From the NCBI GenBank assembly GCA_034668525.1, contig JAXDPC010000260.1, positions 1 through 41,926 on the forward strand: a stretch of 41,926 nt of DNA. The letters run 5' to 3'. This DNA comes from Sphingomonadales bacterium (lineage in GTDB: Bacteria; Pseudomonadota; Alphaproteobacteria; Sphingomonadales; Sphingomonadaceae). Position numbers and translations under genes: made by a program. Under the pieces are notes generated by a model. The model worked only from the letters and a program-made list of their open reading frames with translations, did no database searches and was not told the DNA's origin. Positions 5,221-29,898 of this stretch are shown here, piece by piece. Each line of letters starts with the position of its first letter. The stretch's first letter is position 1.

Positions 5221-5229
5221 ATCTCCAAA

Positions 5230-5249
5230 TCTACTAAGCTCTTAGTAGA
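5230..5249. promoter_or_regulatory. BlaI-family operator (palindrome) upstream of the serine hydrolase
   Basis: TCTACTAAG-ct-CTTAGTAGA: 9-bp perfect inverted repeat with a TAC-N10-GTA core; the same core occurs upstream of the repressor gene. Confidence 0.8.
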
Positions 5250-5273
5250 AGATTGCAAAAAAGGGGATGGCGG

Positions 5274-7163: not shown

Positions 7164-7193
7164 TACGCCTGTCTTAGTACTAATAGATTAGTA
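7164..7193. promoter_or_regulatory. Tandem BlaI-family operators upstream of the repressor gene (autoregulation)
   Basis: TACTAAT-ag-ATTAGTA (7178-7193, perfect 7-bp arms) plus an overlapping imperfect TAC-GCCTGTCTTA-GTA (7164-7179). Confidence 0.75.
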
Positions 7194-8145: not shown

Positions 8146-8146
8146 C

Positions 8147-9706: not shown

Positions 9707-9713
9707 CGCGCGC

Positions 9714-11399: not shown

Positions 11400-11653
11400 C
11401 GTCGCGAGAGGCTCGCGGACACGCTGTCGGCAACACGGTTTACGGTGCGGCATTCGAACAGCAGCACCGGCTCGATCTCCACGCCGAAGCGATCCTCCAG
11501 CTCGCCGCTGATCAGCACCGCATCGATCGACCTGATCCCGAGCTCGATCAGGTCCGCGTCGCGATCGATTCCGGAAGGGTCACAGCCGATCCTTTCGGCG
11601 AGCCGTTCCAGCAGATAGGCGATGAGTTCGTCGCGCGCGGCGGCGTCGGTCAC
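11396..11653 (-). CDS. Acyl carrier protein (FAAL/PKS-type)
   Basis: 85 aa, acidic; LIELGIRSIDAV (phosphopantetheine Ser); ELEDRFGVEIEPVLLFECRTV. Confidence 0.88.
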   Translation of the reverse strand: MTDAAARDELIAYLLERLAERIGCDPSGIDRDADLIELGIRSIDAVLISGELEDRFGVEIEPVLLFECRTVNRVADSVSASLSRR

Positions 11654-11667
11654 TTCTTAAATTCCTC

Positions 11668-12741
11668 TCAGGTCAGGCGGCAGACGAAGTCGATCGGGCT
11701 CGTCACCATCACGTAGGGCTCGAAGCCCGACGGCGGCCAGAGCGGGGCAAAGCGCGGGAAGCGGCGGACCAGCGCCGTCAGGGCCTCTGCGATGATCAGG
11801 CGGGCGAGCTCGGCTCCGAGGCATTTGTGGACGCCCGCGCCGAAAGCGACGTGGTTGATCGATCCGGCGACCGACGCACCGCCGAGCGGACACGCACCGC
11901 CGAGCGCCTCCGCGCTTGCCGGACCGATCGGCACCTCGACCCGCGCTGCCGGCCCGGCCTCGCCACGCCGCTCGCGGATCAGGAACTGGAAGGAGGTGCT
12001 CGCCGCGATCAGTCGTTCCACCGCCGCCATCCGCCGCTCCGGTTCGAGCAGGGCGGACCTGCGCTCGGGCGGAAGGCTCGCGACGGTCATGATCGTGTTG
12101 GAAAGCGTGTGCCGGGTGACGCTGCTCGCTCCGTAGAGGCTCATGGCGAGCCAGATACGGTCCTCCGCCGAAAGCCCATCGTCGTTCTGATGAAGGAAGG
12201 TCGGGAGACCTTCACTTTCGGGCGGCGGCGAAGCGCAGGCGGCGTCGGCGACAGCCGCGGCGAACTCGCCCAGCGCCGTCTCGATCCGCGGCAGCCGGCG
12301 CATTGGCGGAAGCGGCTCGGTCAGCCATCGTGCCTCGTCGGTCCACAGGTCGAAGTCTTCGCGTCCCGCGGCGGGCAGGCCGATCATCCTGCAGACCACG
12401 TCTCCCGCGACGATGCGCGCGAAATCGGCAACCAGGTCAGCTTCCGTCCGACCGTCGAGCAGCGCGACTGCGTCTTCGGCACAGCGCGCGATTTGCGGCT
12501 GCCACATGGCGAGGATCGACGGCCGGAAGAAGGCAAGGGACGCGCGGCGCAGCTCGATGTGCCGCTCCCCGCCGAGAAAGAAGAGCAGCCGTTCGACCTG
12601 CTCACGGATGTTCGGGATCGGCGTGGCGCTGGCGGCCTCCAGCTGGCCAAAGAAGGCCGGCAGATCGATGACATCCGACGAGCGGCTGCGGAGCACCGAC
12701 GCGCAGGCGTTGACGTCCATGGTCCGGGCGGCCGCGGTCAC
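11668..12741 (-). CDS. Cytochrome P450, short and divergent
   Basis: Heme-thiolate motif HVAFGAGVHKCLGAELAR; H..LRR; ADLVADFA...VVCRMIGLP. Likely GTG start at 12741 overlapping the FAAL stop (ATG 12720 is an alternative). Confidence 0.8.
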   Translation of the reverse strand: MTAAARTMDVNACASVLRSRSSDVIDLPAFFGQLEAASATPIPNIREQVERLLFFLGGERHIELRRASLAFFRPSILAMWQPQIARCAEDAVALLDGRTEADLVADFARIVAGDVVCRMIGLPAAGREDFDLWTDEARWLTEPLPPMRRLPRIETALGEFAAAVADAACASPPPESEGLPTFLHQNDDGLSAEDRIWLAMSLYGASSVTRHTLSNTIMTVASLPPERRSALLEPERRMAAVERLIAASTSFQFLIRERRGEAGPAARVEVPIGPASAEALGGACPLGGASVAGSINHVAFGAGVHKCLGAELARLIIAEALTALVRRFPRFAPLWPPSGFEPYVMVTSPIDFVCRLT

Positions 12742-14411
12742 GACGCCTCCGCCATCGCGGCAGCGCCGGCCCAGAGATCGCGCGCTGCGGAACGGCGGAT
12801 CTTTCCGCTGGTCGTGCGGGGAAGGCTCCCGGGGCGCACGATGTGCAGCTCGGCCAGCGTGACCCCGAGGTCGCGGGACAGTGCCGCCCGGGCGCAATGC
12901 AGGGACTCGCGCTCGCCGAGCTGCACCGGCACGCCGCGGCGCCGCTCGACGAGCAGAACGATTGGTCCGCCTTCCTCCTCCGGCCCCTGGAAAGCCGCGG
13001 CCGCGTCCGGGTTGACCTGCGGCAGAGCGGCCGTCGCGATCCGCTCCACATCGACCGCGGCGATATTGACTCCCCCCGCGATCAACACATCCTTGATTCG
13101 ACCGGTGACGCTGAGGCGGTCGCCGTCGATGCGCCCGATGTCGCCCGTGCGCAGCCAGTCGCGGCCGTCGTCCGGCTTCATGCGGGCCGCGAAGACCTCG
13201 CGGGTCGCTTCCTCGTCGGCGAAATAGCCGCCGGCAACGGAGGTCCCGGCGATCCAGATCTCACCTTCCTCGCCCGCCGCGGCCAGCCGCCCGTCCGCCC
13301 CGACGATGCGGATCGTGGCACAGCTCGCGGCATCGAGGTAGCAGGGCGCGCGCTCGCCGGCACGAGGCAGCTCTGACTCCGAGTGCGACGCCGGGCGGTG
13401 CGCACCAGCGGCATAGAGCGTCGTCTCCGCCAGCCCGTAACAGGTGAAAACTGCATCGGGCCTGAGGCCCGCGCGCGCGAAGCGGCGCCGAAAGGCGGCG
13501 AGCGTGGAGGAGAAAACCGGCTCCGCGCCGCAAAACGCACTCCGCCACGACGACAGGTCGAGCGTATCGACCACTTCGTCGGGAACGCGGCTGGCGCACA
13601 GGTCGAGCGCGAAAGCCGGCGCGCCGCTGGTCGTCGCGCGGTAGCGGCTGATCGCCGTCAGCCACCGCGCCGGCCGCTGGACGAATGCCAGCGGCGACAT
13701 GTGGACCGTCTCGAGACCGTTGACGAGCGGGGTCAGGACCTTGCCGATGAGGCCCATGTCGTGATGATGCGGCATCCAGTTGACCAGCAATTCGCGCTCC
13801 CCGCGCTGGCCGACGTCCATGCCCGACGAGGAGGCGGCAATGTTGGCGAGCAGGCAGCGGCTGTGGAGAATGACCCCGCGCGGCACGCCGGTCGTTCCGG
13901 ACGTATATTGGAGGATGGCCGGCTCGCGCAGGTCGCGGTCGAGCCCGGGGCAGTGCAGCGGCGGGTCCGCATCGGCAAGGGCAGCCACGTCGGAGATCGG
14001 CACGCAGGACAGCGGACCGTGCACCCCCCCGCCGCGCCTCAGCCGCTCGGCGATGCGCGGCGATGCGATGACGATGCTCGGGCGACACGCCTCGGCGATC
14101 CTCTCCAGCCGGTCGAGCGACGCGCCGGGCCGCGGCTCGGGCGCAGGGACGGCGACGACGCCGGCATAAAGGCATCCGACGAGGGCGCCGAGAAAATCCG
14201 GGCCGGTCTCCATGACGATCAGCGCCCTGCAGCCGACGAGCTTTCTCTCGATCAGACCGCCCGCGATGCGGCGCGCGGCGGAATCGATCTCCTCGCAGGT
14301 CAGCGCCGCGGCCTCTTCCTCGCCGTTGCGGAGGTACCGCATCAACACCCGATCGGGGGAGGCGGCGAGCTGGTTGTGAATGGCGGAAGCAATCGATCGG
14401 TCTGTACGCAT
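12738..14411 (-). CDS. Fatty acyl-AMP ligase (FAAL)
   Basis: GCLYAGVVAVP, LQYTSGTTGVPRGV, WMPHHHDMGLIG, FVQRPARWL, LDLSSWR, GAEPV, CYGLAETTL, WLRTGDIG, GRIKD, LPRTTSGKIRR. Confidence 0.9.
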   Translation of the reverse strand: MRTDRSIASAIHNQLAASPDRVLMRYLRNGEEEAAALTCEEIDSAARRIAGGLIERKLVGCRALIVMETGPDFLGALVGCLYAGVVAVPAPEPRPGASLDRLERIAEACRPSIVIASPRIAERLRRGGGVHGPLSCVPISDVAALADADPPLHCPGLDRDLREPAILQYTSGTTGVPRGVILHSRCLLANIAASSSGMDVGQRGERELLVNWMPHHHDMGLIGKVLTPLVNGLETVHMSPLAFVQRPARWLTAISRYRATTSGAPAFALDLCASRVPDEVVDTLDLSSWRSAFCGAEPVFSSTLAAFRRRFARAGLRPDAVFTCYGLAETTLYAAGAHRPASHSESELPRAGERAPCYLDAASCATIRIVGADGRLAAAGEEGEIWIAGTSVAGGYFADEEATREVFAARMKPDDGRDWLRTGDIGRIDGDRLSVTGRIKDVLIAGGVNIAAVDVERIATAALPQVNPDAAAAFQGPEEEGGPIVLLVERRRGVPVQLGERESLHCARAALSRDLGVTLAELHIVRPGSLPRTTSGKIRRSAARDLWAGAAAMAEAS

Positions 14412-14626
14412 ACTCGTCCTTTGGACAGCGGTCGTTACAGACCGACGGTGACTCCGAACAGGTCCAAAATGAAACCTATGTTTAGACGATCGGCGGAGCG
14501 CCTTCGGCTTCCCGGTGACTCGGCACCGGTCGGCGGCTCGGCAGGACGAACCGTGCGCTCGCCTTGGAGTCAGGCGCTTGCGTTCGCCGCTCTGCCTCTC
14601 TAGCCGTCGATGGCGAGCGAGGACCG

Positions 14627-16138
14627 ATGACGGATAACAGAGTTAGGAAAGTCGTCGTCATCGGCGGCGGGTCGGCCGGCTGGATGAGCGCGGCCGCATT
14701 GGTGAACACGCTTCGCGGCGGCTGTGAGATCCACCTCGTCGAGAGCGACGAGATCGGTATCGTCGGCGTCGGAGAAGCGACGATCCCTCCCATCAAACTG
14801 TTCAACAACGCCCTCGGGATCGAGGAGAACGACTTCGTCCGCGCCACCCAGGGAGCGTTCAAGCTGGGTATCCAATTCGTCGACTGGGCACGGCTCGGCC
14901 ACGTCTATTTCCACCCGTTCGGCCACATCGGCGCACGCTTCGACAGCGTCCCGCTGCATCAATATTGGCTTCGCGCCCACGCGCGCGGCGACCAGTCGCG
15001 GATCGAAGATTATTCTATGGCCTGGGCCGCGGCCGCGCGCGGCCGGTTCGCACCGCCGGTGGCCGACCAGAGGCTAATCCAGTCGACCCACAGCTATGCC
15101 TATCATTTCGATGCGGGCCTCTATGGCCGCTATCTCCGAGCCTATTCGGAGAAGCGCGGGGTGATCCGCCACGAGGGAAAGGTCGTCGACGTCTCTCTGC
15201 GTGGCGAGGACGGTTTCATCGAAAGCGTGGAGCTTGCGGACGGCCGGGTCGTCGAGGGCGATCTGTTCATCGATTGCTCGGGCTTTCGCGGGCTTCTGAT
15301 CGAAGGCGCGCTGCAATCCGGATACGAGGATTGGAGCCGCTGGCTGCCCTGCAACCGCGCGCTCGCCGTCCCCTGCGCCCATGGCGACAGCGAATTCACG
15401 CCCTACACCCGTTCCACCGCGCGAAGCGCCGGATGGCAGTGGCGGATTCCCCTGCAGCACAGGATCGGCAACGGCTACGTCTATTCGAGCGGCTTCATCT
15501 CCGACGATGAGGCCGCGGCGACCCTGATGGCCAATCTGGACGGGGAGCCCCTCGCCGAGCCGCGTCCCCTTCGATTCACCAGCGGCCGCCGCAGGATCTT
15601 CTGGAACCGCAACTGCATCGCTATCGGCCTCGCCGCCGGCTTCATGGAGCCGCTGGAATCGACCAGCCTCCATTTGGTTCAGAGCGGAATTACCCGTCTC
15701 CTTGCGCTGTGGCCCGACCTCGATTTCAACCCGCTCGGCGCGGCCGAGTACAACCGCCTCACGATCGAGGAATATGAGCGCACCCGCGACTTCATCATCC
15801 TCCATTATCGCGCCACCGAACGGGACGACAGCGAGCTGTGGCGCTATTGCCAGGCCATGACCGTGCCCGACCAGCTTCAGTACAAGATGGACCATTTCCG
15901 GGCCAACGGCAGGCTGGTGATGGAAGGTTATGAGCTGTTTCAGAACCCGTCCTGGATCGCGGTCCATCTCGGACAGTTCGTGACGCCCGAACGTTATGAT
16001 CCGATCGTGGACGAAAGACCGCACGTCCAGGCAGAGCGTATCCTCGCGGACCTGCGCCGCGCCGTCGACGAGGCCGCCGAGGCGATGCCCACGCACCGCG
16101 ACTATATCGAGAGGCATTGCCGGGCCGCGGCCCCTTGA
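14627..16138 (+). CDS. Flavin-dependent halogenase, tryptophan-halogenase family
   Basis: [22 protein letters not shown] (catalytic Lys), YAYHFDA, FIDCSGF, WQWRIPL (WxWxIP), [10 protein letters not shown]. Confidence 0.92.
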
Positions 16139-16150
16139 GAGGAAGGGGCC
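16129..16150. terminator. Hairpin between the convergent halogenase and methyltransferase genes
   Basis: GGCCCCTT-gagagg-AAGGGGCC, 8-bp stem; no clear U-tract. Confidence 0.4.
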
Positions 16151-16984
16151 TCAGGCGCTGACCGCTTTGCGGCCGACCGCCACCCAATACGGCGAGCCCT
16201 CGCGGAAGCGGATCCCATCGAGGCCGCTGCGCCGCATCATCGCTTCGATCGCGGCGCGCGAGAAGCGCTGCTCGAGCGGTGTCCCGAACCGGTCGAGGGC
16301 GGCCATGCGCATGTTGCCGAGACGGGCATCGCGGTACGAGCCGAGCGGCACCCGCTCGGCGTCGCCGCCGGCGCGCTCGACCAGCCGGGCGAGCCTGCTG
16401 AGCGGCCAGTAGATCGAGACGGCGATCGCGTCGCAGGCGTGGCTGCGCAGGCGATCCGGAAGCCGCGATATGGCGCGGCGGCCCATGTCCGCGGCCCGCC
16501 AGGCAGCGCGAAACCAGAACGGCCGGTTCTCGAAGTCGTAATATAGGTAGAGCAGGAAGGGCGCGCCCGGCTTGAGCTTGGCGACGCAGCGACGCAGCGC
16601 AGCTTCGGTGTCCGGAACGTGGTGGAGGACGCCCAGCGAATAGCCGAAATCCTGGCTGCCGTCGGCTAAGGGGATATCGTCGACTGCAGCGAGGTGGAAG
16701 TCGACATTGCTCCAGTCCGCCATCGCGCGGCGCGCGACTGCCAGTCCGCTCGGCGACGGATCGAGGCAGTGGAGCCGGCCGACCCGCGGCGCGACGTGGA
16801 CCGCCAGTCGCCCCTGGCCGCAGCCGAGATCGAACCCTTCGGCATCCGCCAGCTCGTCGAACGGGAAAAGGGAGAAAAGCTGCTCGAAGCCCCGCCGCGA
16901 CCGCTCCGGATTGTCGGTGCCGCCGGTTCGGGCTCTCCATTTCGCATCGAAGGCACGCGCGGTCGCTTCGTCGATATTGCTCAC
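16151..16984 (-). CDS. Class I SAM-dependent methyltransferase
   Basis: Motif I FDLGCGQG, LDPS, DFGYSLGVLHHVPD, LKPGAP. Confidence 0.9.
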   Translation of the reverse strand: MSNIDEATARAFDAKWRARTGGTDNPERSRRGFEQLFSLFPFDELADAEGFDLGCGQGRLAVHVAPRVGRLHCLDPSPSGLAVARRAMADWSNVDFHLAAVDDIPLADGSQDFGYSLGVLHHVPDTEAALRRCVAKLKPGAPFLLYLYYDFENRPFWFRAAWRAADMGRRAISRLPDRLRSHACDAIAVSIYWPLSRLARLVERAGGDAERVPLGSYRDARLGNMRMAALDRFGTPLEQRFSRAAIEAMMRRSGLDGIRFREGSPYWVAVGRKAVSA

Positions 16985-17036: not shown

Positions 17037-18410
17037 TCAGGCGCGCGGGCTGCCGCCGAGCGCCTTGTAGAGATCGATCGCGGCTTCGAGCCGTTCCTGG
17101 TGCGCGACTGCGCGGGCGTCCTCGGCGCGAACCAGCAATTGCTCGGCGTCGAGCACCTGCTGGAGATCGGCCTCGCCCTCGAGATACTGGCGCCTGGCAA
17201 GACGGGCGGTGACCGTCGCCTCGGCCACGATTTCGACCAGCAGCGCCTCGCGGGCGCGGGAATGGGCGACCGCGGCGAGGCCGTTCTCCGCCTCGCCCAG
17301 AGCCGAGAGGAGCGCGCCTCGATAGAGCTCGACGCTTTCCGCCTGCTCGGCGGCGACGGTGCCGAGCTCGCCGCGCAGGCGACGGCGGTTGAAGATCGGC
17401 GCCAGCAGGTCCGAGCCGATGCGGAGGGTCGCCCCGATCGGACCGCCGAGCGTTGCCGCCTGGCCGAGCGCGCTCGCACTCAGACGAATGCGCGGCAGGA
17501 AGGCGGCACGGGCGCGGGTCACGTCGCCTTCCGCGGCGGCGATCCGCGCCTCCGCGGCGCGCACGTCGGGTCGGCGGACGAGAAGCTCGCCGGGTTGCAC
17601 CTGAGCGATCTCGGGAACGACGAGGTTCGCCAGCCGCCCTCGCGGCGCCGCAAAGAGTGGCGCCTCCTCGCCGACCAGGACGGCGAGAGCATTCCGGGTC
17701 CGCGCCAGCGCTTCGACCAGCCGCAATCTGTCGGCCTCGAGCTGGCGCACCTGGATGGTCTGCAATCCGGTGTCCACGCGGGTCGCGTCGCCCAGCCTCA
17801 GCCGGACGCCGATGATACGCTCCAGCTCGCGCGCCTGCCCGATATTGCGGTCGAGCAACGCGATCCTGTCCGCCAGGGCCGCGTGCTGGACATAAGCGCG
17901 CGCGACTTCGGTCTCGATCACCAGAGCGGCGGCGTCCCGATCGAAGGCCGCGGCGGCGAGACGGGCGCGGGCGGCGCGTCGGCCGGCACGCTCGCCCCCG
18001 AACAGGTCGAGATCGTAGGAGACGTCGAGTCCGGCGAAGCCCTCGCTGAAGTTGAAGGCGCCGCCGCCATTATTGTCGGTGTCCGTGCCGCTGAGGCCGG
18101 CGGAGCCGGTCACCACCGGCAGCATCGAGGCACGCGCGATGCCGAGCTGCGCCCGCGCCCTCTGGACTCGCGCCGCCGCGGCGGCGACGTCGGCATTGCG
18201 CGTGGCTGCGAGAGCGAGCAGCCGCTGCAGCTCGGGATCCCCGAACGCATCGCCCAGCGCCGGCTGGTGCGTCGGCGCCCCTGTCGCCGTCCCTTCGCCG
18301 CTCCAGCTCCGCGACTGCAGCTCCGGCCGCGGCCGCGTCTCGACCGAGGGCGCGCACGCCGAAGCGAGCGCTGCGAGCAGGGCGAATGCGGGCAGGCGGT
18401 GCGCAATCAT
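17037..18410 (-). CDS. Outer-membrane efflux lipoprotein (NodT/OprM/TolC family)
   Basis: Lipobox LASAC; FGDPELQRL..A..RNADV, SYDLDLFG, LLVRRPDVRAAE, AAFLPRI, IDLYKALGG. Confidence 0.93.
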   Translation of the reverse strand: MIAHRLPAFALLAALASACAPSVETRPRPELQSRSWSGEGTATGAPTHQPALGDAFGDPELQRLLALAATRNADVAAAAARVQRARAQLGIARASMLPVVTGSAGLSGTDTDNNGGGAFNFSEGFAGLDVSYDLDLFGGERAGRRAARARLAAAAFDRDAAALVIETEVARAYVQHAALADRIALLDRNIGQARELERIIGVRLRLGDATRVDTGLQTIQVRQLEADRLRLVEALARTRNALAVLVGEEAPLFAAPRGRLANLVVPEIAQVQPGELLVRRPDVRAAEARIAAAEGDVTRARAAFLPRIRLSASALGQAATLGGPIGATLRIGSDLLAPIFNRRRLRGELGTVAAEQAESVELYRGALLSALGEAENGLAAVAHSRAREALLVEIVAEATVTARLARRQYLEGEADLQQVLDAEQLLVRAEDARAVAHQERLEAAIDLYKALGGSPRA

Positions 18411-18520: not shown

Positions 18521-19753
18521 ATGTCCACGCAATTGTTCCGTCAGGAAGTGATCGAGGCGAGCCGCGACCGGCTGGCGGGCGCGGTCGTCGCCGCGGTGCC
18601 GCCGCGCTCGCGGCTCTACACGATGCTCCTGCTCGGCTTCGCGGCGGTGGTCGTCGCCATCCTCATACTAGGCCAATATGCCACCAGCGCTCGCGTGCGC
18701 GGCATCGTCGCCTACGACGCCGGTATCGCGCGGGTCTATCCGGCGAGCCCGGCCGAGATCCGTGCCATCCACGTCCGCACCGGCCAGCGGGTCCGCGCCG
18801 GCGACCCGCTCGTCACCATCTCGCTCGCCCAAGGCTCGAACGGCGTCAACGCGCAGCTCGCCCAGATCGACCGGCAGGACGCCGAGCTCGCCCGGCAGCA
18901 GACGCTCGCCGGCGAGATCGGCGCCACCGAAGCGGGGGGGCTCAGCGAGCAGCGCGCCGGCCTCCGTGCCGCGATCGCCTCGCTGGAGCGCCAGCGCGCG
19001 ATCGCCGCAGGACAGATCACGCTCGCGGAGTCGGCCACCCGCCGCGCCGTCCAGCTCGCCAGCGAGGGCGCCGGCACCCAGCGCCAGGTCGAGGACGCAC
19101 GCGCCACATTGCTGGCGCGCCGGGCCGAGCATGAGGGGCTGAACGAGCGGCTGATCGCGCAGCGCGAGCAGCTTCGCGCCATCGACAATCTGGTCGCCGG
19201 ACGGACACTGGAGGCGAGCCGCAGCGGATCGGTGCTCGGCGCCCAGCGCGCGGCTTTGGCCGAGCAGCGCGAGGCCCTCCTCCGCACCCACCAGCTTACT
19301 CTCACCGCCCCGATCGACGGCGAGGTCGGCGACGTGCCGGTCGAGGTCGGCCAGCGCGCGCGCCCCGACGCGTCGCTGGTCACGATCGTCCCGGCCGGGA
19401 GCCGCCTCGAAGTCTGGGTCTACGCCCCGTCGCGGGCGATCGGCTTCGTCCGCCCGGGCCAGGAGGTGCGGCTGCTGTTCGACGCCTTCCCCTACCAGAC
19501 CTACGGCGCCGGCCGCGGCCGCGTCACCGAAGTCTCCCGCGTGCCGACTGAGCCCTCAGCGATCGATGCTCAGCTCGGCATCGAAGAGCCCGTTTTCCGC
19601 ATCCGCGTCGCAATCGACCAGCTCGCGCCCCGCGCCAGCGCCGACCAGCGCCAGCTCCGCCCCGGCATGACGCTCTCCGCCAATCTCGTGCTCGAGCGGC
19701 GCAGCCTCTGGCAGGTCCTCTTCAACCCCTTCCTGGCGACGGTCGAGCAATGA
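18521..19753 (+). CDS. HlyD-family membrane fusion protein (CvaA/RaxA-like)
   Basis: N-terminal LFRQE, one TM helix, coiled-coil, LTAPIDGEV, SRAIGFVRPGQEV.L.FDAFPYQTYG, EPVFRI, LRPGMTLSA. Confidence 0.93.
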   Translation: MSTQLFRQEVIEASRDRLAGAVVAAVPPRSRLYTMLLLGFAAVVVAILILGQYATSARVRGIVAYDAGIARVYPASPAEIRAIHVRTGQRVRAGDPLVTISLAQGSNGVNAQLAQIDRQDAELARQQTLAGEIGATEAGGLSEQRAGLRAAIASLERQRAIAAGQITLAESATRRAVQLASEGAGTQRQVEDARATLLARRAEHEGLNERLIAQREQLRAIDNLVAGRTLEASRSGSVLGAQRAALAEQREALLRTHQLTLTAPIDGEVGDVPVEVGQRARPDASLVTIVPAGSRLEVWVYAPSRAIGFVRPGQEVRLLFDAFPYQTYGAGRGRVTEVSRVPTEPSAIDAQLGIEEPVFRIRVAIDQLAPRASADQRQLRPGMTLSANLVLERRSLWQVLFNPFLATVEQ

Positions 19754-21873
19754 GCGGGATCGAATGGCCCTGGCTGCGGCGCATGCAGCCGCTCTACCAG
19801 TCGGAAGCGGCCGAGTGCGGCCTCGCCTGCCTGGCGATGATCGCAAATTATCACGGGCACCGCGTCAACCTTTCCGGGCTGCGCCAGCGCTATCCGACCT
19901 CGATCAAGGGCGCGACGCTGGGCGACCTGATGACCATCGCCGCCGGCCTGGACCTGTCGCCGCGCGCTGTCCGCCTCGATCTCGACGAGTTCGACAAGCT
20001 GCAGACTCCGGCCCTGCTGCACTGGGACCTCAACCATTTCGTCGTTCTGGAAAGCGCCGGGCGCGACCATGTCGTGATCCTCGATCCGGCCGCCGGCCGG
20101 CGCCGGGTGGCGCTGCGCGAGCTCGACCGCCACTTCACCGGTGTCGCCCTGGAGCTGACGCCGACGTCCGACTTCAAGCCGGTCGAGGCCCGCTCGAAGA
20201 CCCGGCTCCGGGACCTGTGGAGCCGGATGACGAATTATCGCGGCGCCATGGTCCAGGTGCTGTCGCTGTCGCTGCTGCTGCAGCTGACCGCCCTGGTCAT
20301 GCCCTTCTTCCTGCAGCTGACCGTCGACGAGGCGATCGGCCAGGGCGACACCAACCTGCTGCTCATCCTCTTCATCGGCTTCGGCGTTGTCTACGTGTTG
20401 AACGGCGTCACGCGAGCGCTGCGCTCCTGGGTGGTGCTGACCTTGGGCGAATCGCTCACCTACCAGCTCGCGGGCAACGTCGTGCGCCATCTGGTCCGGC
20501 TGCCGCTCGGCTATTTCGAGCGGCGCCATGTCGGCGACCTGCTGTCGCGCATCGGCTCGATCAACCCGATCCAGTCCCTGCTCACCCAGGGCCTGGTCAA
20601 CGTGCTCATCGATTCCGCGCTGGCGCTCACCACCGTGATCGTGATGGCCATGATCAGCCCGCTGCTGATGCTGATCGTAGTCGGATCGACGCTCTTCTAC
20701 CTCGCCTACAGCTTGCTCCTCTATCCGGGCCTGCGCCGCCGCACCGAGGAGGAAATCGTCGCCCGCGCCAATGAGGAGACCTACCTCATGGAATCGATGC
20801 GGGCGATCCGTGCGATCAAGCTGCACAGCCACGAGGCGATGCGCGAGAACGGCTGGCGCAACCGCTACGCCGACGTCATCTCCGCCACCTATCGCGCCGA
20901 AATCTACAATATCCGGCTGAACCTCGCCGAGAACATCCTGTTCGGAATCCAATTCCTGCTCGTCGTCTATCTGGGCGCGCATGCCGTGCTCGGCCAGACA
21001 ATGACGATCGGCCTGCTGCTCGCCTTCATCGCCTATCGCACCAGCTTCATGGGCAGCGCGGTGGCCCTGGTCGGCCAGCTCCAGCGCTGGCGCCTCGTCG
21101 GAGTCCATCTCGACCGGCTTTCGGACATCGTCGGCGAGCCGCGCGAGGATCTGCACATCGTGCCGCGCGGCGGCCTGCTGCCGGCGCCGTCGATCCGCAC
21201 CGACGCCCTCACCTTCGCCTACGGCCCGACCGAAGCGCCGGTGTTCGACGGCATCGACCTCGAAGTGCCGGCCGGGAGCTTCGTCGCCATCGTCGGTCCC
21301 TCAGGCTCCGGCAAGACGACCTTGGTGCGGATACTCCTGGGCCTGCTTCCAGCCACGTCCGGTCGCGTCCTCATCGACGGCATCCCGCTCGGCCCGGCGA
21401 CCATCTCCGGCTGGCGCAGCCGCATCGGCGCAGTGATGCAGGACGATCATCTGCTGACTGGCACGCTGGCCGACAACATCTCCTTCTTCGATCCGCGGAT
21501 CGACCAGGCCTGCGTCGAGGAAGCCGCCAAGCTCGCCCGCATCCACGACGACATCATGAAGATGCCGATGGCCTATCAGAGCCTGATCGGCGACATGGGC
21601 GCGGCCTTGTCGTCCGGTCAGCGCCAGCGGATCATGCTCGCCCGCGCCCTCTATCGCGACCCCGACATCCTGTTCCTCGACGAAGGCACGGCCAATCTCG
21701 ACGAGGACAATGAGCGCGCCATCGCCGACATGATCGCCTCGCTGCCGGTGACCCGCATCGTCGTCGCCCACCGCCCCGCTTTGGTCGAGCGGGCGGACAT
21801 CGTCTTCACATTGGACGGCGGACGGCTGCTGCGCAGCGAGCGGCGCAGCAGCCGCATACCGGAGCTTGCCTAA
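19750..21873 (+). CDS. Peptidase-containing ABC transporter (C39 domain; CvaB/RaxB-like PCAT)
   Basis: C39 QSEAAECGLACLAM, HWDLNHFVV, ILDPA; TM domain with YFERRHVGDLLSR; Walker A GPSGSGKT, LSSGQRQR, Walker B ILFLDE, VAHR. Confidence 0.96.
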   Translation: MSGIEWPWLRRMQPLYQSEAAECGLACLAMIANYHGHRVNLSGLRQRYPTSIKGATLGDLMTIAAGLDLSPRAVRLDLDEFDKLQTPALLHWDLNHFVVLESAGRDHVVILDPAAGRRRVALRELDRHFTGVALELTPTSDFKPVEARSKTRLRDLWSRMTNYRGAMVQVLSLSLLLQLTALVMPFFLQLTVDEAIGQGDTNLLLILFIGFGVVYVLNGVTRALRSWVVLTLGESLTYQLAGNVVRHLVRLPLGYFERRHVGDLLSRIGSINPIQSLLTQGLVNVLIDSALALTTVIVMAMISPLLMLIVVGSTLFYLAYSLLLYPGLRRRTEEEIVARANEETYLMESMRAIRAIKLHSHEAMRENGWRNRYADVISATYRAEIYNIRLNLAENILFGIQFLLVVYLGAHAVLGQTMTIGLLLAFIAYRTSFMGSAVALVGQLQRWRLVGVHLDRLSDIVGEPREDLHIVPRGGLLPAPSIRTDALTFAYGPTEAPVFDGIDLEVPAGSFVAIVGPSGSGKTTLVRILLGLLPATSGRVLIDGIPLGPATISGWRSRIGAVMQDDHLLTGTLADNISFFDPRIDQACVEEAAKLARIHDDIMKMPMAYQSLIGDMGAALSSGQRQRIMLARALYRDPDILFLDEGTANLDEDNERAIADMIASLPVTRIVVAHRPALVERADIVFTLDGGRLLRSERRSSRIPELA

Positions 21874-22814
21874 CAGTCGGCGGCGTTGCTGGTGCGGACC
21901 TTGAACTCGATCTCGATCACCGTCTCCATCCGGACGATGGGCAGCACCCTCAGGATCCTGGGGTCGAAATAATCGCGCAGCAGGGGCGGACGCTTGGCAG
22001 CGAAATAGAATTCCGGATCCTGCGAGACCGGTTCCCCGGCCGCCACCTTGAGCTCGTCCTTCCGCGTCACGTCGGTGACGATGCACGGCGCGTGGCTGAT
22101 CCCCAGCGCGCGCAGGGCGTAGGCGCGGTGATAGCCGTTCTGGAGGACGGCACGGCCGCCGCTGCGCACCGCCGACATGAAGTTGCAGCCGAAGCCGACC
22201 GGCAGCACCAAGGCCGACGAGATGGGGCCGAAGCTCGCCAAGCGCTTCAGATCGTCCTCGCCCATCAGCCGCGCGGCATGGGCGCGGAAGTCGGTCGAAC
22301 CGGAGGCGAACAGATAGCGGTCCGACGACAGCCGCTGGACCCGCACCGGCGGGCTGGGCCGGTCGAGCGGCAGGCAGAAGCGGAACAAGGCCTCCGGATC
22401 CGGCGCGGGGCCGAGGCCGCCGCAGAGCGCGTCGGAGAAGGGCCGCTCGATATGGGTCTGGGAGACGATCAACCGGTCCAGCTCGACCATCATGATCCGC
22501 GAAGGCAGCGTGCCGAATGCCTCGCGGAACCAGGGATGCGCCTTCACCTTGCGCGCCAGCGGCCGCATCTCGGGGGGCAGCGGCCGGCAGTCGTGCCTGT
22601 CGGCGTCGCCGGCCTCGCTCTGCTCCAGCTCGTAATAATAATCGTTGGCCGCGCGCCATTCGTCGGCGAGGCGCTGCGTCGGGATGGACGCGCCCCCCAC
22701 CGCCTTCGTCGTCACGAAGTCGAGATAGTCGGCGAGGTGCGGCTGGCCGAGCAGCCAGACGAGCTCGGCGCCCGCGGCTTCGCCTGAATTCGGATTGACG
22801 CGCTCGCTGCGCAC
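21870..22814 (-). CDS. Hypothetical protein with ParB/sulfiredoxin-like catalytic motifs; candidate peptide-modifying enzyme
   Basis: GTG 22814 with GAGGGAGG RBS (ATG 22844 is an alternative). MVELDRLIVSQ and VLQNGYHRAYALRALGISHAPCIV match the ParB/Srx 'L.p.Q' and 'G.HR..A...LG...P.iv' elements; no HTH evident. Confidence 0.7.
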   Translation of the reverse strand: MRSERVNPNSGEAAGAELVWLLGQPHLADYLDFVTTKAVGGASIPTQRLADEWRAANDYYYELEQSEAGDADRHDCRPLPPEMRPLARKVKAHPWFREAFGTLPSRIMMVELDRLIVSQTHIERPFSDALCGGLGPAPDPEALFRFCLPLDRPSPPVRVQRLSSDRYLFASGSTDFRAHAARLMGEDDLKRLASFGPISSALVLPVGFGCNFMSAVRSGGRAVLQNGYHRAYALRALGISHAPCIVTDVTRKDELKVAAGEPVSQDPEFYFAAKRPPLLRDYFDPRILRVLPIVRMETVIEIEFKVRTSNAADC

Positions 22815-22960: not shown

Positions 22961-23143
22961 TTAGCAGCGGCCCTTGGAACGGCCCTTGCTCTTGCTGCCC
23001 TTGCCCTTGCTGCGCGAGCCGTGGCCCTTGCTGCCCGAGCCGCGACCGCGCGAGCCGCAGGGGTTGCACGAGCGGGGGCGACACGAGCCCTTGCCGCCGG
23101 CGCCATAGACATGGCCGATTTCGTCGATGTGAAGGTCACGCAT
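22961..23143 (-). CDS. Double-glycine-leader precursor peptide (60 aa; putative RiPP/bacteriocin-like)
   Basis: ATG 23143 with AGAGGGAG RBS; leader MRDLHIDEIGHVYGA fits L(-12) E(-8) I(-7) V(-4) GA(-2/-1); adjacent to the C39 PCAT/HlyD/OMF genes. Confidence 0.85.
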   Translation of the reverse strand: MRDLHIDEIGHVYGAGGKGSCRPRSCNPCGSRGRGSGSKGHGSRSKGKGSKSKGRSKGRC

Positions 23144-26334: not shown

Positions 26335-26853
26335 ATGCACATCACCCTTGCTTCGAGCCGGCCCGCGCAGACGCTCGCCGCGTCCGCCTTGCTCGGACTC
26401 GCCATGCCGACCACGGCGATGGCGGGGACGCAGACCACGACCATGGGCGTCAGCGCGACGGTGACGGCCAATTGCACGGTGTCCACGACCGCCATCGCAT
26501 TCGGGAGCGTCAATACGCTGAGCGGGAGCAATGTCGATGCCAACGGGACCGTTTCCGTCACCTGCACCAACGGATCGGCCTGGACCCTGTCCGCCGACGC
26601 CGGCGGCGGCAGCGGCGCGACCATGGCGACCCGGCGCATGACCGCGGGCGGGAACACGCTCAACTACACGATCCATACCTCCGCCGGTCACGGCACCATC
26701 TGGGGCGACGGCACCGCCACCACCGCCACGATCGGCAACACCGGCACCGGCGCGGCCCAGACCGTCACGGTCTACGGGCGCGTTTTCTCCGGCCAGACCG
26801 GCGTCCCTGCCGGAAGCTATTCCGACACCGTCAACGTCACCGTCACCTACTGA
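26335..26853 (+). CDS. Spore-coat-U (SCPU/CsuA-B-like) archaic chaperone-usher pilin
   Basis: Signal peptide (..AMA); VSATVTANC, IAFG, VTCTNG, RRM....LNY, WGDG, VYGR, GSYSDTVNVTVTY. Confidence 0.92.
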   Translation: MHITLASSRPAQTLAASALLGLAMPTTAMAGTQTTTMGVSATVTANCTVSTTAIAFGSVNTLSGSNVDANGTVSVTCTNGSAWTLSADAGGGSGATMATRRMTAGGNTLNYTIHTSAGHGTIWGDGTATTATIGNTGTGAAQTVTVYGRVFSGQTGVPAGSYSDTVNVTVTY

Positions 26854-26870
26854 CCAGGAGCCGAACGATC

Positions 26871-27584
26871 ATGATGACCCGCCTCAGCATCGCGCTGCTC
26901 GCCGCCGCGGCCGCCCTCGCCTTGCCGGCGGCCGCGACCGCCGGCTCGCTGCAGGTCGATCCGATCCGGCTCGAGATCAACGCGGGGCGCCGCACCGCGA
27001 CGCTGCGCGTCCGCAACCAGGAGCATACGCCGGTCACGATCCGGGCCTACGCCCTCGACTGGAGCCAGCCGGACGGCGAGGACCATTATGTCGAGACGAG
27101 CGGCGTGATCGCCTCGCCGCCGATCTTCACCATCCCGGGCGGCGGCACCCAGCTGATCCGGGTGGGCCTGCGCAACCCCGCCGGCGGCCCGCGCGCCTAC
27201 CGCCTGATGGTCGAGGAGGTGCCGCAGGCCACGCCCGGAGGCGGCGTCCAGGTGGCGCTGCGGCTCAACCTGCCCTTGTTCGTCTCGATTCAGCCGGGAA
27301 CCGCGGCGGAGCTCGCCTGGTCAGCCGCGCGCGGCACCGACGGCCGCTGGACGGTCGAGGCGACGAACGGCGGTCGCAACTATGTCCGCGTCGAACCTGC
27401 CGCCGCGGAAGCCGCGACCGGGATCGACTTCGCCGACGGCACCAATCTGGGCGTCGTCCTTCCGGGCAGCAGCCGGCGCTGGGTGGTGGGCAACGAGCCG
27501 GTCATCGTCGACCGCAGTCGGTTCACGTCGATCCAGAGGACGGCCGACCGTGCCGACGCCCAGCTCACGCTCCGCCGCAACTAG
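26871..27584 (+). CDS. Fimbrial periplasmic chaperone (CsuC/PapD-like)
   Basis: Signal peptide; SLQVDPIRLEI, LRVRN, ASPPIFTI, QLIRVG, YRLMVEEVP, LNLPLFV. Confidence 0.9.
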   Translation: MMTRLSIALLAAAAALALPAAATAGSLQVDPIRLEINAGRRTATLRVRNQEHTPVTIRAYALDWSQPDGEDHYVETSGVIASPPIFTIPGGGTQLIRVGLRNPAGGPRAYRLMVEEVPQATPGGGVQVALRLNLPLFVSIQPGTAAELAWSAARGTDGRWTVEATNGGRNYVRVEPAAAEAATGIDFADGTNLGVVLPGSSRRWVVGNEPVIVDRSRFTSIQRTADRADAQLTLRRN

Positions 27585-29898
27585 GGCCTGCCTCCTCGGT
27601 CTGCTGCTCGCCGGCTCCGCGCCCGCACTGGCGTCCGGTGCGGCGACCGCATCGCCGCTGGAGCCGACCTTGCTCGAGGTCGTGGTCAACGGTCAGGGCT
27701 CGGACGAGCCCCTGCTCCTGCAGCGCGATTCGAGCGGCGGCCTCTACGCCAGCGAGGCACAATTGCGCGAATGGCGAATCCGCCTGCCCTCGGTGGCGCC
27801 GATCACGATCGACGGCGAGGCCTGGTACCGGATCGACAACGACCCGGGCCTCAGCGCGACCTTGTCGGGCGCCGAGCAGTCGCTGCGGATCGATGCGCGC
27901 CCAGACCTGTTCGAGCGGCAGAGCTCCAGCCTCTCCGGCCTCGACGCCGTCGAGATGACTCCCTCGGGCACCGGCGGCTGGCTGAACTACGATATTCTCG
28001 CAGAGTATCGCAGTGGCGGCATCGGCCTCAACGGCGCGATCGAGGCCGGGGCATTCACACGCTTCGGCGTCGGATCGTCGAGCTTCGTGGCAAGCTCGAG
28101 CGCAGGACGGTCGCGCCTGGTCAGGCTCGAGACCAGCTGGTCCATCGACCGGCCCGAGAAGCTCACCTCGACTCGGATCGGCGACGGCGTGACCACGGGG
28201 GGCAACGGCGTCGCGCCGCTGCGCTTCGCCGGCATCCAATATGCGCGCAATTTCGCGACGCGCCCCGGCTACCTCACCATGCCGCTCCCCACTCTGGAGG
28301 GCAGCGCCGCGGTGCCGTCGGTCGTCGACGTCTATGTGAACAACACCCTCCAGGGCAGCCGCGAGGTGACGCCCGGCCCGTTCGAGCTGACCAACATCCC
28401 GATCCAGTCTGGCGGCGGCACCGTCCAGCTGGTGACGCGCGATCTGCTCGGGCGGCAGGTGGTCACCCAGCAATCCTATTATGCGTCGAGCCTGCTGCTC
28501 CGGCGCGGGCTCCACGATTTCTCCTACGAGATCGGCTTCGTCCGTTCGGGCTTCGGCGTCCGCAGCAACGATTATGGCGGCCTGCTCGCATCGACCAGCC
28601 ACCGCTACGGCGTCACGGACGCGATCACGGTGGAGGGTCACGCCCAGGCGAGCCGCGACACCCAGGTCGCCGGCGCCGGGGTAAGTCTCTCCTTCTTCGA
28701 CCTCGGCACGATCGGTGCGGCGGCGAATTTCAGCCGCTCCCCGCGCGGCAACGGCGCACTCCTCTCGGGTTCCGTTGAGCGGCGCAGCACCGGACTTTCC
28801 CTCGGCATCCGTGCCGAATATGCCAGCGCCGGTTACAGCTTCGTGGGCATCGGGGAGGACAACCGTCCGCCGCGGCTGAGCGCGCAGGCCTTCGCGGACC
28901 TGCCGCTGCTGGGCGGCTCGATCGGTCTCAACTACATCCATCGCGACCGCCGCGGAGGCGAGGAGGACGAGAGCGTCGCCGGGATTTTCGGCAACGTACC
29001 CCTGATCGACGGCATGACCATGCAGGTCTTCGCGCGCCGCGCCGTCGCCGGCAAGGCGCAGACCGTGCTCGGCGCCCATGTCTCCTTCGCGCTCGGCGGG
29101 CGCCGCAGCGCCTCGGCGTCGGTGGAGTACCGGGCCGACGGCGGCTTTTCGCACAACATCTCCGTCCAGGAGGATGCGCCCAGCGGCATCGGCGGAGGAT
29201 ACCGGGCATCCACGAACGTCAGCGACGGCAGGCGCACGATGGAGAGCGTCTATACCTACAACACGACGCTGGCGACGCTCGGAGCCCATGTCAGCCGCGC
29301 GGGCGGTGGCACCGGTGTACGACTCTCCGCACGCGGCTCGCTTGGCCTGATCGGCGGACGGCCGTTCGCCGCCCGCTCGCTCGGCGGAAGCTTCGCGCGG
29401 GTGCAGGTCGGGCGGCAGGCGGGGGTGCGAGTCTATGCCGACAACCAGCTCATCGGGGTCACCGGGGTTGACGGCTCAATCGTCGTCCCGTCGCTGCGGC
29501 CGTTCGATCGCAACGTGATCCGGATCGAGGAGGCGGATCTGCCGCTCGAGGTCCAGATCAGCGAGACGGAGGTCCCGGTGCGACCGTTCGCGCGAGCGGG
29601 CGCCACTGTCCGTTTCGGGGTGCGGCGGGAGCGCGGCGTTCTCCTCCAGCTCTCGCTGGAGGACGGCAGCGCCCTTCCGGCCGGAGCGCTGGTCCGCGTC
29701 GACGGCACGGCGGACATGCACGTCGCCGTCTCGGGCGGCGAGGTCTACATTCCGGCCCTCGACGGCACCGCCTCGCTCGAGGCGAGCTGGGAAGGCGGAG
29801 ATTGCCGCCTGCAGGTGACGGTTCCGCAGACGGACGATCCGCAGCCGCGCCTCGCCGGCCTCATCTGCCGCCGAACGCAGGCCATCGCCGCGCGCTGA
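27550..29898 (+). CDS. Fimbrial outer-membrane usher (CsuD-like)
   Basis: Probable GTG 27550 (AGAGGA RBS) followed by a signal peptide; LEVVVNG, LNYD, RLET, RIGD, PSVVDVYVNN, PGPFEL, RDLLGR, YGVTD; ~780 aa. Confidence 0.9.
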   Translation: MPTPSSRSAATRACLLGLLLAGSAPALASGAATASPLEPTLLEVVVNGQGSDEPLLLQRDSSGGLYASEAQLREWRIRLPSVAPITIDGEAWYRIDNDPGLSATLSGAEQSLRIDARPDLFERQSSSLSGLDAVEMTPSGTGGWLNYDILAEYRSGGIGLNGAIEAGAFTRFGVGSSSFVASSSAGRSRLVRLETSWSIDRPEKLTSTRIGDGVTTGGNGVAPLRFAGIQYARNFATRPGYLTMPLPTLEGSAAVPSVVDVYVNNTLQGSREVTPGPFELTNIPIQSGGGTVQLVTRDLLGRQVVTQQSYYASSLLLRRGLHDFSYEIGFVRSGFGVRSNDYGGLLASTSHRYGVTDAITVEGHAQASRDTQVAGAGVSLSFFDLGTIGAAANFSRSPRGNGALLSGSVERRSTGLSLGIRAEYASAGYSFVGIGEDNRPPRLSAQAFADLPLLGGSIGLNYIHRDRRGGEEDESVAGIFGNVPLIDGMTMQVFARRAVAGKAQTVLGAHVSFALGGRRSASASVEYRADGGFSHNISVQEDAPSGIGGGYRASTNVSDGRRTMESVYTYNTTLATLGAHVSRAGGGTGVRLSARGSLGLIGGRPFAARSLGGSFARVQVGRQAGVRVYADNQLIGVTGVDGSIVVPSLRPFDRNVIRIEEADLPLEVQISETEVPVRPFARAGATVRFGVRRERGVLLQLSLEDGSALPAGALVRVDGTADMHVAVSGGEVYIPALDGTASLEASWEGGDCRLQVTVPQTDDPQPRLAGLICRRTQAIAAR

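What the first reader, a model, noticed from the sequence alone, without database searches (positions are those of the whole stretch)
21870..22814. ParB/sulfiredoxin-fold protein as a candidate peptide Ser kinase or NTP-dependent tailoring enzyme
Seen: the two ParB/Srx elements (VELDRLIVSQ and VLQNGYHRAYALRALG..APCIV) are separated by an insertion of about 100 aa. There is no obvious HTH or dimerisation domain and no ParA nearby. Established: this fold binds NTPs, and its members include phosphotransferases, namely the serine kinases SerK (Thermococcus) and SbnI (Staphylococcus) and sulfiredoxin. The adjacent core peptide has 10 Ser in 45 residues. Inference: the enzyme may phosphorylate or otherwise NTP-activate Ser (or Cys) residues of the peptide.
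Basis: inference. Interest (0 to 1): 0.8.

Follow-up and report, generated by a model that had tools for sequence, protein, structure and literature searches.

The report
ParB-fold enzyme for serine-rich secreted peptides
An unannotated bacterial protein, predicted to have the nucleotide-binding ParB/sulfiredoxin fold, sits with a small serine- and lysine-rich peptide gene and a peptide exporter in dozens of related loci, and likely modifies that peptide (most likely by adding phosphates), which would be a new way to make modified peptide natural products.

Summary
Window 21870-22814 (-) encodes a 314-aa protein with no Pfam family. Its AlphaFold model (pLDDT 94.7) matches only ParB/Srx-fold chains above background (sulfiredoxin Z 6.5-6.8, SerK 5.4, next unrelated 2.7). 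The net insertion is about 68 aa, not 100. All 74 distinct cores hold at least 4 Ser/Thr; Cys is missing from 18, so Cys is not the common target. No other tailoring enzyme is conserved. Optional oxygenases track Pro motifs in the core, as in RiPP clusters. I put the chance that it modifies the peptide at about 0.7, and stable Ser/Thr phosphorylation specifically at 0.45. Against a simple SerK copy: the kinase Asp is Asn here, SerK ignores peptides and Thr, and most of the wider family lies outside this clade (one branch beside a lasso cluster, two members alone in prophage-like contigs). No activity is shown. My literature searches found no ParB-fold RiPP maturase.

The parts
21870..22814 (-). 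ParB/Srx-fold protein, 314 aa (P0003); candidate peptide maturase. N-terminal helical extension (about 14-100), split ParB/Srx core (about 105-135 and 214-273), beta-rich insert (about 140-210) paired with C-terminal strands
   Evidence: its stop codon overlaps the exporter's stop
22458..22487 (-). First ParB/Srx element VELDRLIVSQ (110-119); Gln119 conserved
   Evidence: Q in 120 of 124, 71 of 71 precursor-linked enzymes
22284..22304 (-). Family-specific S-x-S-x-D-x-R motif (171-177) in the insert; candidate substrate-binding or catalytic residues (inference)
   Evidence: D175 and R177 each 113 of 124, 71 of 71
22125..22139 (-). NGYHR phosphate-binding motif (226-230), equivalent to GERR of ParB and DGHHR of SerK
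   Evidence: alignments; G227 122, H229 117, R230 121 of 124
21972..21992 (-). Family-specific RPP-x-x-x-D motif (275-281); Asp281 invariant
   Evidence: P276 and D281 124 of 124, R275 123 of 124
22961..23143 (-). Precursor peptide gene, 60 aa
   Evidence: same leader upstream of relatives
23099..23143 (-). 15-aa double-Gly-type leader with Leu-12, Glu-8, Ile-7, Val-4, Gly-2, Ala-1
   Evidence: consensus in PMC6363468 (passages); leader logo
22964..23098 (-). Predicted 45-aa core: 10 Ser, 7 Lys, 7 Arg, 4 Cys, 13 Gly, no acidic residue
   Evidence: cleavage site inferred from the leader consensus
19750..21873 (+). Peptidase-containing ABC transporter (C39 + ABC) with Cys23, His96, Asp112 in place; convergent with the enzyme
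   Evidence: Pfam PF03412, PF00664, PF00005; residues
18521..19753 (+). HlyD-type periplasmic adaptor
   Evidence: PF13437, TIGR01843 below cut-off
17037..18410 (-). Outer-membrane efflux channel (NodT/TolC type), divergent from hlyD
   Evidence: PF02321, TIGR01845 above cut-off; a homologue in 12 of 42 loci

Best explanation
The protein is likely the single core maturase of a ribosomal-peptide (RiPP) cassette: it is predicted to bind a nucleotide in its ParB/sulfiredoxin pocket and would transfer phosphate to several Ser/Thr residues of the adjacent cationic precursor, which the neighbouring C39 transporter would then cleave and export. Shown: the gene order precursor-enzyme-exporter, its conservation in the clade, the leader motif, the core composition, the conserved motifs. 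Predicted: the fold. Inferred: nucleotide binding (donor unknown: ATP, ADP, GTP or CTP), action on the precursor, Ser/Thr as acceptor (often in Ser/Thr-Lys/Arg pairs), and a stable phosphate ester as product. The product would be a long, unstructured peptide with alternating phospho-Ser and Lys/Arg; its role (metal or mineral binding, adhesion, signalling, or charge masking of an antibacterial polycation) is not addressed by any search.
For: Fold; the best matches are sulfiredoxin, Atu1540 and SerK, and sulfiredoxin, SerK and SbnI are the known HTH-less enzymatic members (bioRxiv 2025.10.10.680097, introduction). Motif Gly/His/Arg conserved; 36 of 124 members touch the SerK profile at E<=1, best 5.4e-4. 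Precursor linkage: 14 of 14 GTDB loci; 56 of 64 loci by pattern against 1 of 138 control regions, 59 of 62 within the clade after three misses were resolved; 4 of 4 plasmid records and 4 of the 5 strong-match loci from family genomes. C39 exporter in 37 of 42 and HlyD in 37 of 42 loci with 3 kb downstream. Cores: 74 of 74 have >=4 Ser/Thr, while Lys is absent from 3, Arg from 16, Cys from 18, His from 27, Tyr from 50, Asp/Glu from 53; one core has Thr only. Ser/Thr is followed by Lys/Arg in 44.7% against 27.0+-1.8% in shuffles of 45 dissimilar cores, 0 of 1000. Optional tailoring genes fit a RiPP: 2OG oxygenase with S-P-x-P cores 10 of 10 against 5 of 45, FemAB-type in 13 loci. A distant branch lies beside a lasso cluster with a Thr-Thr-Ser-Pro tail in 9 of 81 genomes of one genus, the same 9 that hold its cyclase.
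Against: No activity, binding or product is shown. The Asp of SerK (D69) and SbnI aligns with Asn226 (Asn in 69, Asp in 2 of 71); SbnI needs Glu20 and Asp58 for kinase activity (PMC9641203 citing Verstraete 2018, passage), and the first element has Gln119, which I infer stands where SerK has Glu30. SerK refuses Thr and peptide Ser (PMC5120207). The precursor-linked enzymes are one clade holding only 13 of 108 sampled 50%-identity representatives, so the linkage may be one evolutionary event; two distant members stand alone on prophage-like contigs (L123, L129), and the context of most others could not be read. Three clade loci show no precursor (L016, L046, L093) and four related loci (L008, L031, L035, L037) no C39 exporter nearby. 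All 74 cores are also rich in Lys/Arg taken together and hold Gly, so composition alone could reflect a low-complexity cationic peptide. The lasso link is one orthologous, divergently oriented locus. All structural Z-scores are under 8.
Confidence: 0.45

Rival explanations
1. It is the maturase, but phosphate is only an activating step or another group is transferred: for example phosphorylation then elimination to dehydro residues, cross-linking to Lys or Cys, displacement by a nucleophile, or nucleotidylation.
For: Same linkage data. The SerK/SbnI acidic residue is replaced while new invariant motifs appear (D175, R177, R275, D281). The best structural match, sulfiredoxin, uses phosphorylation of a protein side chain as activation (recalled). 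Ser/Thr-Lys/Arg adjacency is enriched.
Against: No lyase, cyclase or donor-making gene recurred among the neighbours; Cys and Lys are each dispensable in some cores.
Confidence: 0.22
2. It does not modify the exported peptide: it is a nucleotide-switched escort or self-protection protein that holds the strongly cationic precursor away from nucleic acids until export, as in an unmodified microcin-like system.
For: Cores have median net charge +11.5 and 1% hydrophobic residues. Gln119 resembles the Box I Gln of ParB switches (spacing; equivalence inferred). No separate immunity gene recurred. Distant members occur with no peptide.
Against: The protein is net neutral (-1), not an acidic sponge. 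Ser/Thr are kept in every core although charge needs only Lys/Arg. Catalytic-type residues are near invariant.
Confidence: 0.18
3. It is a DNA-binding regulator or partition-like protein for the exporter genes, like ParB, or like EdeB and SbnI in their regulatory roles.
For: ParB-family proteins inside biosynthetic clusters can act as activators (EdeB; PMC9641203, passages). Some members lie on plasmids and prophage-like contigs.
Against: Structural matches to ParB, Noc and KorB stop before their HTH; no Pfam HTH in 124 members among the 25 families shown; no ParA motif in the window and a canonical parAB elsewhere.
Confidence: 0.06
4. It is a small-molecule enzyme (free-serine kinase like SerK/SbnI, or a sulfiredoxin acting on Cys) that only travels with the cassette.
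For: Weak profile matches to SerK and SbnI; sulfiredoxin is the top structural match.
Against: Kinase Asp replaced by Asn; no Cys in the NGxHR motif (Tyr 66, His 5 of 71); no serine- or siderophore-pathway genes recurred nearby; tight position directly behind the precursor.
Confidence: 0.06

Closest known systems
SerK (Thermococcus) and SbnI (Staphylococcus) free-serine kinases
   Same: ParB/Srx core without HTH (Z 5.3-5.5 to 5x0b/5x0g/5uje); xGxHR motif aligns; hydroxyl acceptor is the proposed parallel.
   Different: Asn for their Asp; about 68-aa insert inside the core; SerK takes free Ser only, not Thr or peptide (PMC5120207); far below the NCBIfam SerK cut-off (12 bits against 380).
Sulfiredoxin (Srx)
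   Same: Best structural match (Z 6.5-6.8, rmsd 2.5-3.1, 86-100 residues); acts on a polypeptide side chain with ATP (recalled).
   Different: No Cys in the motif; three times longer; no peroxiredoxin gene recurred nearby.
Canonical ParB/Noc/KorB CTPases
   Same: Gln-type first element and GxxR motif; Z 4.3-5.5.
   Different: No HTH match, no ParA partner, no PF02195 match; the genome has its own parAB.
Phosphorylated RiPPs: phospeptin (LanM-like EmbM), paeninodin/pseudomycoidin and LPP (HPrK-like kinases), dolichospermamides (PKc-like domain)
   Same: Proposed outcome: a ribosomal peptide phosphorylated on Ser/Thr by a cluster enzyme (PMC12639078 and PMC13381572, passages).
   Different: None of those kinases is ParB/Srx-fold ('ParB' occurs 0 times in either main text); here a double-Gly leader with C39/type I export, no RRE gene found, and a repetitive Ser-Lys-Gly core.
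Double-Gly-leader peptides exported by PCAT-HlyD-TolC (class II microcins, bacteriocins)
   Same: Leader consensus and active C39 triad.
   Different: A dedicated ParB/Srx-fold gene between precursor and exporter; cores nearly free of hydrophobic residues (1%).

Membership tests
ParB/Srx fold superfamily | ParB/Srx core topology | tested here: met
   AF2 model pLDDT 94.7; top 8 rows of the wide search all ParB/Srx, Z 6.5-4.0 against 2.7; predicted model, Z below 8
ParB/Srx fold superfamily | Phosphate-binding GxxR (Box II) motif | tested here: met
   NGYHR aligns with GERR, DGHHR, DGVHR; R230 in 121 of 124
ParB/Srx fold superfamily | Binds a nucleotide | not testable with these tools
   needs DRaCALA, ITC or thermal shift
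Canonical ParB (ParABS) | Central HTH DNA-binding domain | tested here: not met
   after the core the model has short helices and two strands pairing with the insert; matches to ParB/Noc/KorB end before their HTH
Canonical ParB (ParABS) | parA partner next to the gene | tested here: not met
   no ParA Walker A motif in the window; one beside the genome's ParB on C80
Canonical ParB (ParABS) | Pfam PF02195 match | tested here: not met
   0 families for P0003; PF02195 not among the 25 families shown for 124 members
SerK/SbnI serine kinases | Asp before the GxHR motif (SerK D69, SbnI D58) | tested here: not met
   Asn226; Asn in 69 and Asp in 2 of 71
SerK/SbnI serine kinases | Catalytic Glu in the first element (SerK E30, SbnI E20) | tested here: inconclusive
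   Gln119 is conserved there, but no call gave a residue-level alignment of this element; equivalence is inferred
SerK/SbnI serine kinases | Score above the NCBIfam SerK cut-off | tested here: not met
   12.1 bits against 380
Sulfiredoxin | Cys in the GCHR motif (motif recalled) | tested here: not met
   Tyr228; Tyr 66, His 5 of 71
RiPP cluster with PCAT export | Precursor with conserved leader and variable core | tested here: met
   59 of 62 clade loci; 74 distinct cores
RiPP cluster with PCAT export | C39 peptidase exporter with intact triad | tested here: met
   Cys23, His96, Asp112; 37 of 42 loci
RiPP cluster with PCAT export | Enzyme covalently modifies the core | not testable with these tools
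   needs co-expression and mass spectrometry
Known phospho-RiPP classes (phospeptin, HPrK lasso/LPP, cyanobactin) | LanM-like, HPrK-like or PKc-like kinase in the cluster | tested here: not met
   no such family among the 25 window proteins scanned or the recurrent neighbours examined

The most novel reading that the evidence does not exclude
A ParB/sulfiredoxin-fold enzyme is the class-defining maturase of an undescribed RiPP family in Pseudomonadota: the first peptide Ser/Thr kinase of this fold, making secreted, multiply phosphorylated Ser-Lys repeat peptides that recall animal and diatom phospho-polycations used for mineral binding and adhesion (resemblance recalled), and the same enzyme family was recruited a second time to a lasso peptide cluster.
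Probability: 0.4. Interest if true: 0.85.

Novelty: new variant of a known kind. Interest (0 to 1): 0.72.

Why it matters
The ParB/Srx fold is under active study as a versatile nucleotide-binding module, but the 2025 survey started from PF02195, which this family does not match, and none of my searches found the fold as a RiPP maturase. A family of over 1,000 clusters at 50% identity has no annotation; one clade of it comes with its likely substrate encoded next door, so the function can be tested with two short genes in E. coli, and cultured carriers exist. If it is a peptide kinase it adds a fourth kinase fold to phosphorylated RiPPs and a leader-directed tool for multi-site phosphorylation. 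If the chemistry is something else, it is new chemistry for the fold. Either way it exposes a peptide class that domain-based mining would miss.

Tried and rejected
Sequence libraries gave nothing for the protein: Pfam 0 families, PADLOC 0 of 124 members, PDB by single sequence one chance hit, Foldseek no E<=0.001 against PDB or BFVD. ESM Atlas: unnamed clusters at 0.98; named ParB-related clusters only at 0.75-0.79, leads only. Complex prediction of enzyme, 60-aa precursor, ATP and Mg: no verdict, score 0.01; not evidence either way. No RNA holder was listed; not evidence either way. The N-terminal 12-112 piece folded alone (pTM 0.54) matched only generic helical pairs, best Z 4.7; the insert was not folded alone. 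Search for longer forms found one HlyD 'fusion' that reads like a frameshift artefact. Contexts for the distant members: two class-wide genome samples added no new locus (1 genome unscored), phage records none, plasmids the same 4 records, viral contigs 2 contigs. Promoter scan found none. The neighbouring methyltransferase, acyl-AMP ligase and DUF4893 genes were rejected as cassette parts (each 1 of 17 loci, halogenase 0 of 17); the glucokinase query in that call was out of frame and its count is dropped. The ORF clustering was dominated by shadow frames and the ORF filter is crude (38 loci, output cut), so rare accessory genes may be missed. Cys as common target and sulfiredoxin membership were rejected. 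The SbnI primary paper was not held. Earlier-findings look-ups by sequence and place returned nothing.
Full report
1. The observation. Window 21870-22814 (-) is a 314-codon gene starting at GTG behind a purine-rich ribosome-binding site, with GC3 0.91. The gene lies 146 nt downstream of a 60-aa peptide gene (22961-23143) and ends tail to tail with a C39 peptidase ABC transporter; hlyD and an outer-membrane channel follow. The predicted core has 10 Ser, 7 Lys, 7 Arg, 4 Cys and 13 Gly in 45 residues. The closest named relative is an Allosphingosinicella MAG protein at 88%.

2. The fold. Pfam has no match. The family is large: 1,800 proteins among 5,197 candidates and 1,103 representatives at 50% identity. 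A 124-sequence alignment gave an AlphaFold model with pLDDT 94.7 and pTM 0.90. Against 48,161 solved chains the first eight rows are sulfiredoxin (Z 6.5, rmsd 2.5, 86 residues), human Srx 6.5, Atu1540 6.4, SerK 5.4, PadC 5.2, SbnI 4.7, KorB 4.4 and pNOB8 ParB 4.0; the next row is 2.7. The second look agrees. Foldseek alone gave no E<=0.001, though its top ranks are ParB proteins. The profile also picks Noc, Spo0J, SerK and SbnI at E 0.13-1.2. So the fold is well supported by agreement, with no single strong score. The Gln-to-Gly spacing is 108 against 40 in the genome's own ParB, a net insert of about 68 residues. Matches to ParB, Noc and KorB stop before their HTH; parAB lies on contig C80; the window gene is single copy in an 86% complete genome.

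3. Active-site letters. NGYHR aligns with SerK DGHHR, Asn226 opposite Asp69, and with SbnI DGVHR. SbnI needs Glu20 and Asp58 (PMC9641203, passage citing Verstraete 2018; primary paper not held). Asn holds this place in 69 of 71 precursor-linked enzymes. Gln119 is in 120 of 124; that it stands where SerK has Glu30 and ParB its Box I Gln is my inference. New motifs are near invariant: S-x-S-x-D-x-R (171-177), G207-x-x-x-N211, R221, RPP-x-x-x-D (275-281). The protein therefore fails membership of SerK/SbnI, sulfiredoxin and canonical ParB, while keeping the phosphate-binding Gly/His/Arg. Loss of the Asp does not exclude phosphotransfer, since sulfiredoxin also lacks it (recalled), but it removes the simplest argument for a serine kinase. 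SerK uses ADP and refuses Thr and peptide Ser (PMC5120207, passages). In the 2025 survey, 11 of 28 purified ParB-fold proteins bound an NTP and specificity varied (bioRxiv 2025.10.10.680097; abstract, introduction, two of three results parts), so the donor cannot be predicted.

4. The cassette. All 14 GTDB loci have an upstream peptide with the same leader. Over 96 loci, 64 held 600 nt upstream and 56 matched a leader pattern, against 1 of 138 control regions. Of the 8 misses, 3 do have a precursor (L050, L062, L079), 2 belong to the lasso branch and 3 have none found (L016, L046, L093): 59 of 62 within the clade. The leader fits the PCAT consensus Leu-12, Glu-8, Leu-7, Val-4, Gly-Gly/Ala (PMC6363468, passages; logo of 53 leaders; partly circular because the pattern selected them). 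Of 42 loci with 3 kb downstream, 37 have a C39 exporter and 37 hlyD, in two layouts, convergent as here or co-directional. Four plasmid records show the same cassette, all annotated hypothetical. Distribution is patchy: 4 further genomes with strong matches among 300 of the family, 0 of 4 of the genus, none among 400 others of the class.

5. The cores. The 74 distinct cores are 28-98 aa, median net charge +11.5, 1% hydrophobic. All 74 have at least 4 Ser/Thr and at least 4 Lys/Arg. Taken singly, Ser is in 73 (the other has 8 Thr), Lys 71, Arg 58, Cys 56, His 47, Tyr 24, Asp/Glu 21. Hydroxyl residues are the only chemically uniform modifiable class in all cores; Cys cannot be the common target. 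Ser/Thr is followed by Lys/Arg far more often than in shuffles (50.6% against 26.2%; 44.7% against 27.0% in 45 dissimilar cores, 0 of 1000 shuffles); related loci are not independent. No second tailoring enzyme is conserved, but optional ones occur: a 2OG-Fe(II) oxygenase in 11 loci and a FemAB-type transferase in 13. All 10 oxygenase loci with a known core have S-P-x-P, against 5 of 45 without it, in three places on the tree. That pattern is what a RiPP cluster looks like.

6. Limits. In a 209-sequence tree, the 71 precursor-linked enzymes, the window protein, 19 with short or empty flanks and 13 of 108 representatives form one clade (FastTree support 0.93, midpoint root). The linkage may thus be one recruitment. 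Outside the clade I could read only three contexts. One branch lies divergent to a lasso cluster (B2 above cut-off, cyclase, ABC exporter, TonB receptor; tail Thr-Thr-Ser-Pro) in 9 of 81 genomes of genus g140, the same 9 with the cyclase: one orthologous locus. Two members stand alone on prophage-like contigs with no leader found. The ancestral function is therefore open.

7. Mechanism. Most likely the enzyme binds the leader, takes phosphate from a nucleotide and phosphorylates several Ser/Thr; the exporter cuts after Gly-Ala and secretes the core (0.45). Other covalent chemistry gets 0.22, an escort or self-protection role 0.18, regulator 0.06, small-molecule enzyme 0.06. Only the genetics and motifs are shown; the fold is predicted; all chemistry is inferred.

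8. What is known. Phosphorylated RiPPs use LanM-like, HPrK-like or PKc-like enzymes (PMC12639078, passages; PMC13381572, passages); 'ParB' occurs 0 times in either main text. ParB-family genes in clusters have other described roles (EdeB; DUF1015 proposed as serine kinase, PMC13759103, passages; ToxB ATPase, bioRxiv 2026.05.05.722872, passages). Searches pairing ParB with RiPP terms found no such maturase: 0 papers, 7 listed with 0 ParB mentions, 15 of 34 listed with 0 ParB mentions, 6 listed and not read, 0 for silaffin with RiPP; one search was uninformative. Most subscription journals are outside the library and I opened no supplements, so an earlier in-silico description, for example in superfamily surveys, is not excluded. 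Two earlier notes of this scan report ParB/Srx-like domains fused to RiPP enzymes in other genomes; they are unchecked leads.

9. Verdict. A real, conserved, unannotated cassette of precursor, ParB/Srx-fold enzyme and C39 exporter. It works like a RiPP cluster; it is not a member of SerK/SbnI, sulfiredoxin or ParB proper. New variant of a known kind, directly testable, interest 0.72.

Noticed in passing
G000 contig C344, 3188-3403 (-) and 3551-3724 (-): A second peptide with the same leader family (S-P-T-P-P then an Asn/Gly-rich core) lies behind a 2OG oxygenase fragment at the contig end; it resembles the second precursor of the Blastomonas plasmid cluster.
   Followed up: partly
L101:7924-17860 (G361) and 8 other genomes of genus g140: Distant homologue divergent to a lasso cluster with an identical predicted core in all 9 genomes, a duplicated leader motif, and a TonB receptor.
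   Followed up: partly
L123:5959-6888 and L129:600-1571: Distant homologues stand alone on prophage-like contigs (integrase and terminase matched by Pfam in L123; terminase-like gene by eye in L129), with no leader peptide found.
   Followed up: partly
L052, L072, L073, L077, L084, L085, L088-L092, L095, L110: A FemAB-family transferase joins the cassette in 13 loci; it may aminoacylate core Lys residues (inference).
   Followed up: partly
L003, L004, L005, L025, L027, L039, L053, L104-L106, L113: 2OG-Fe(II) oxygenase in 11 loci, with S-P-x-P cores in all 10 known: likely a prolyl hydroxylase for the peptide.
   Followed up: partly
L062:539-1559: A DUF6065 gene sits between a Ser/Asn-rich, Lys-free precursor and the enzyme.
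   Followed up: no
L016:1-916: A close relative (66%) has DUF4893 directly upstream and no precursor, although the exporter is kept downstream.
   Followed up: no
L111 and L112, downstream of the exporter: A two-component system follows the exporter on both the Rhodobacter and Paracoccus plasmids; could point to a signalling role.
   Followed up: no
P0249, P0270: Distant members fused behind a methyltransferase-like region, and in P0270 also a family 25 glycosyltransferase.
   Followed up: no
window 7180-16984: A separate cluster-like stretch: MBOAT, carbamoyltransferase, P450-like gene, acyl-AMP ligase, tryptophan-halogenase family gene, methyltransferase; not conserved with the cassette.
   Followed up: no
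window 3526-6758 and 26335-29898: A beta-lactamase-family (serine hydrolase) gene next to a BlaR1/M56 peptidase gene; and an SCPU pilin with chaperone-usher genes.
   Followed up: no
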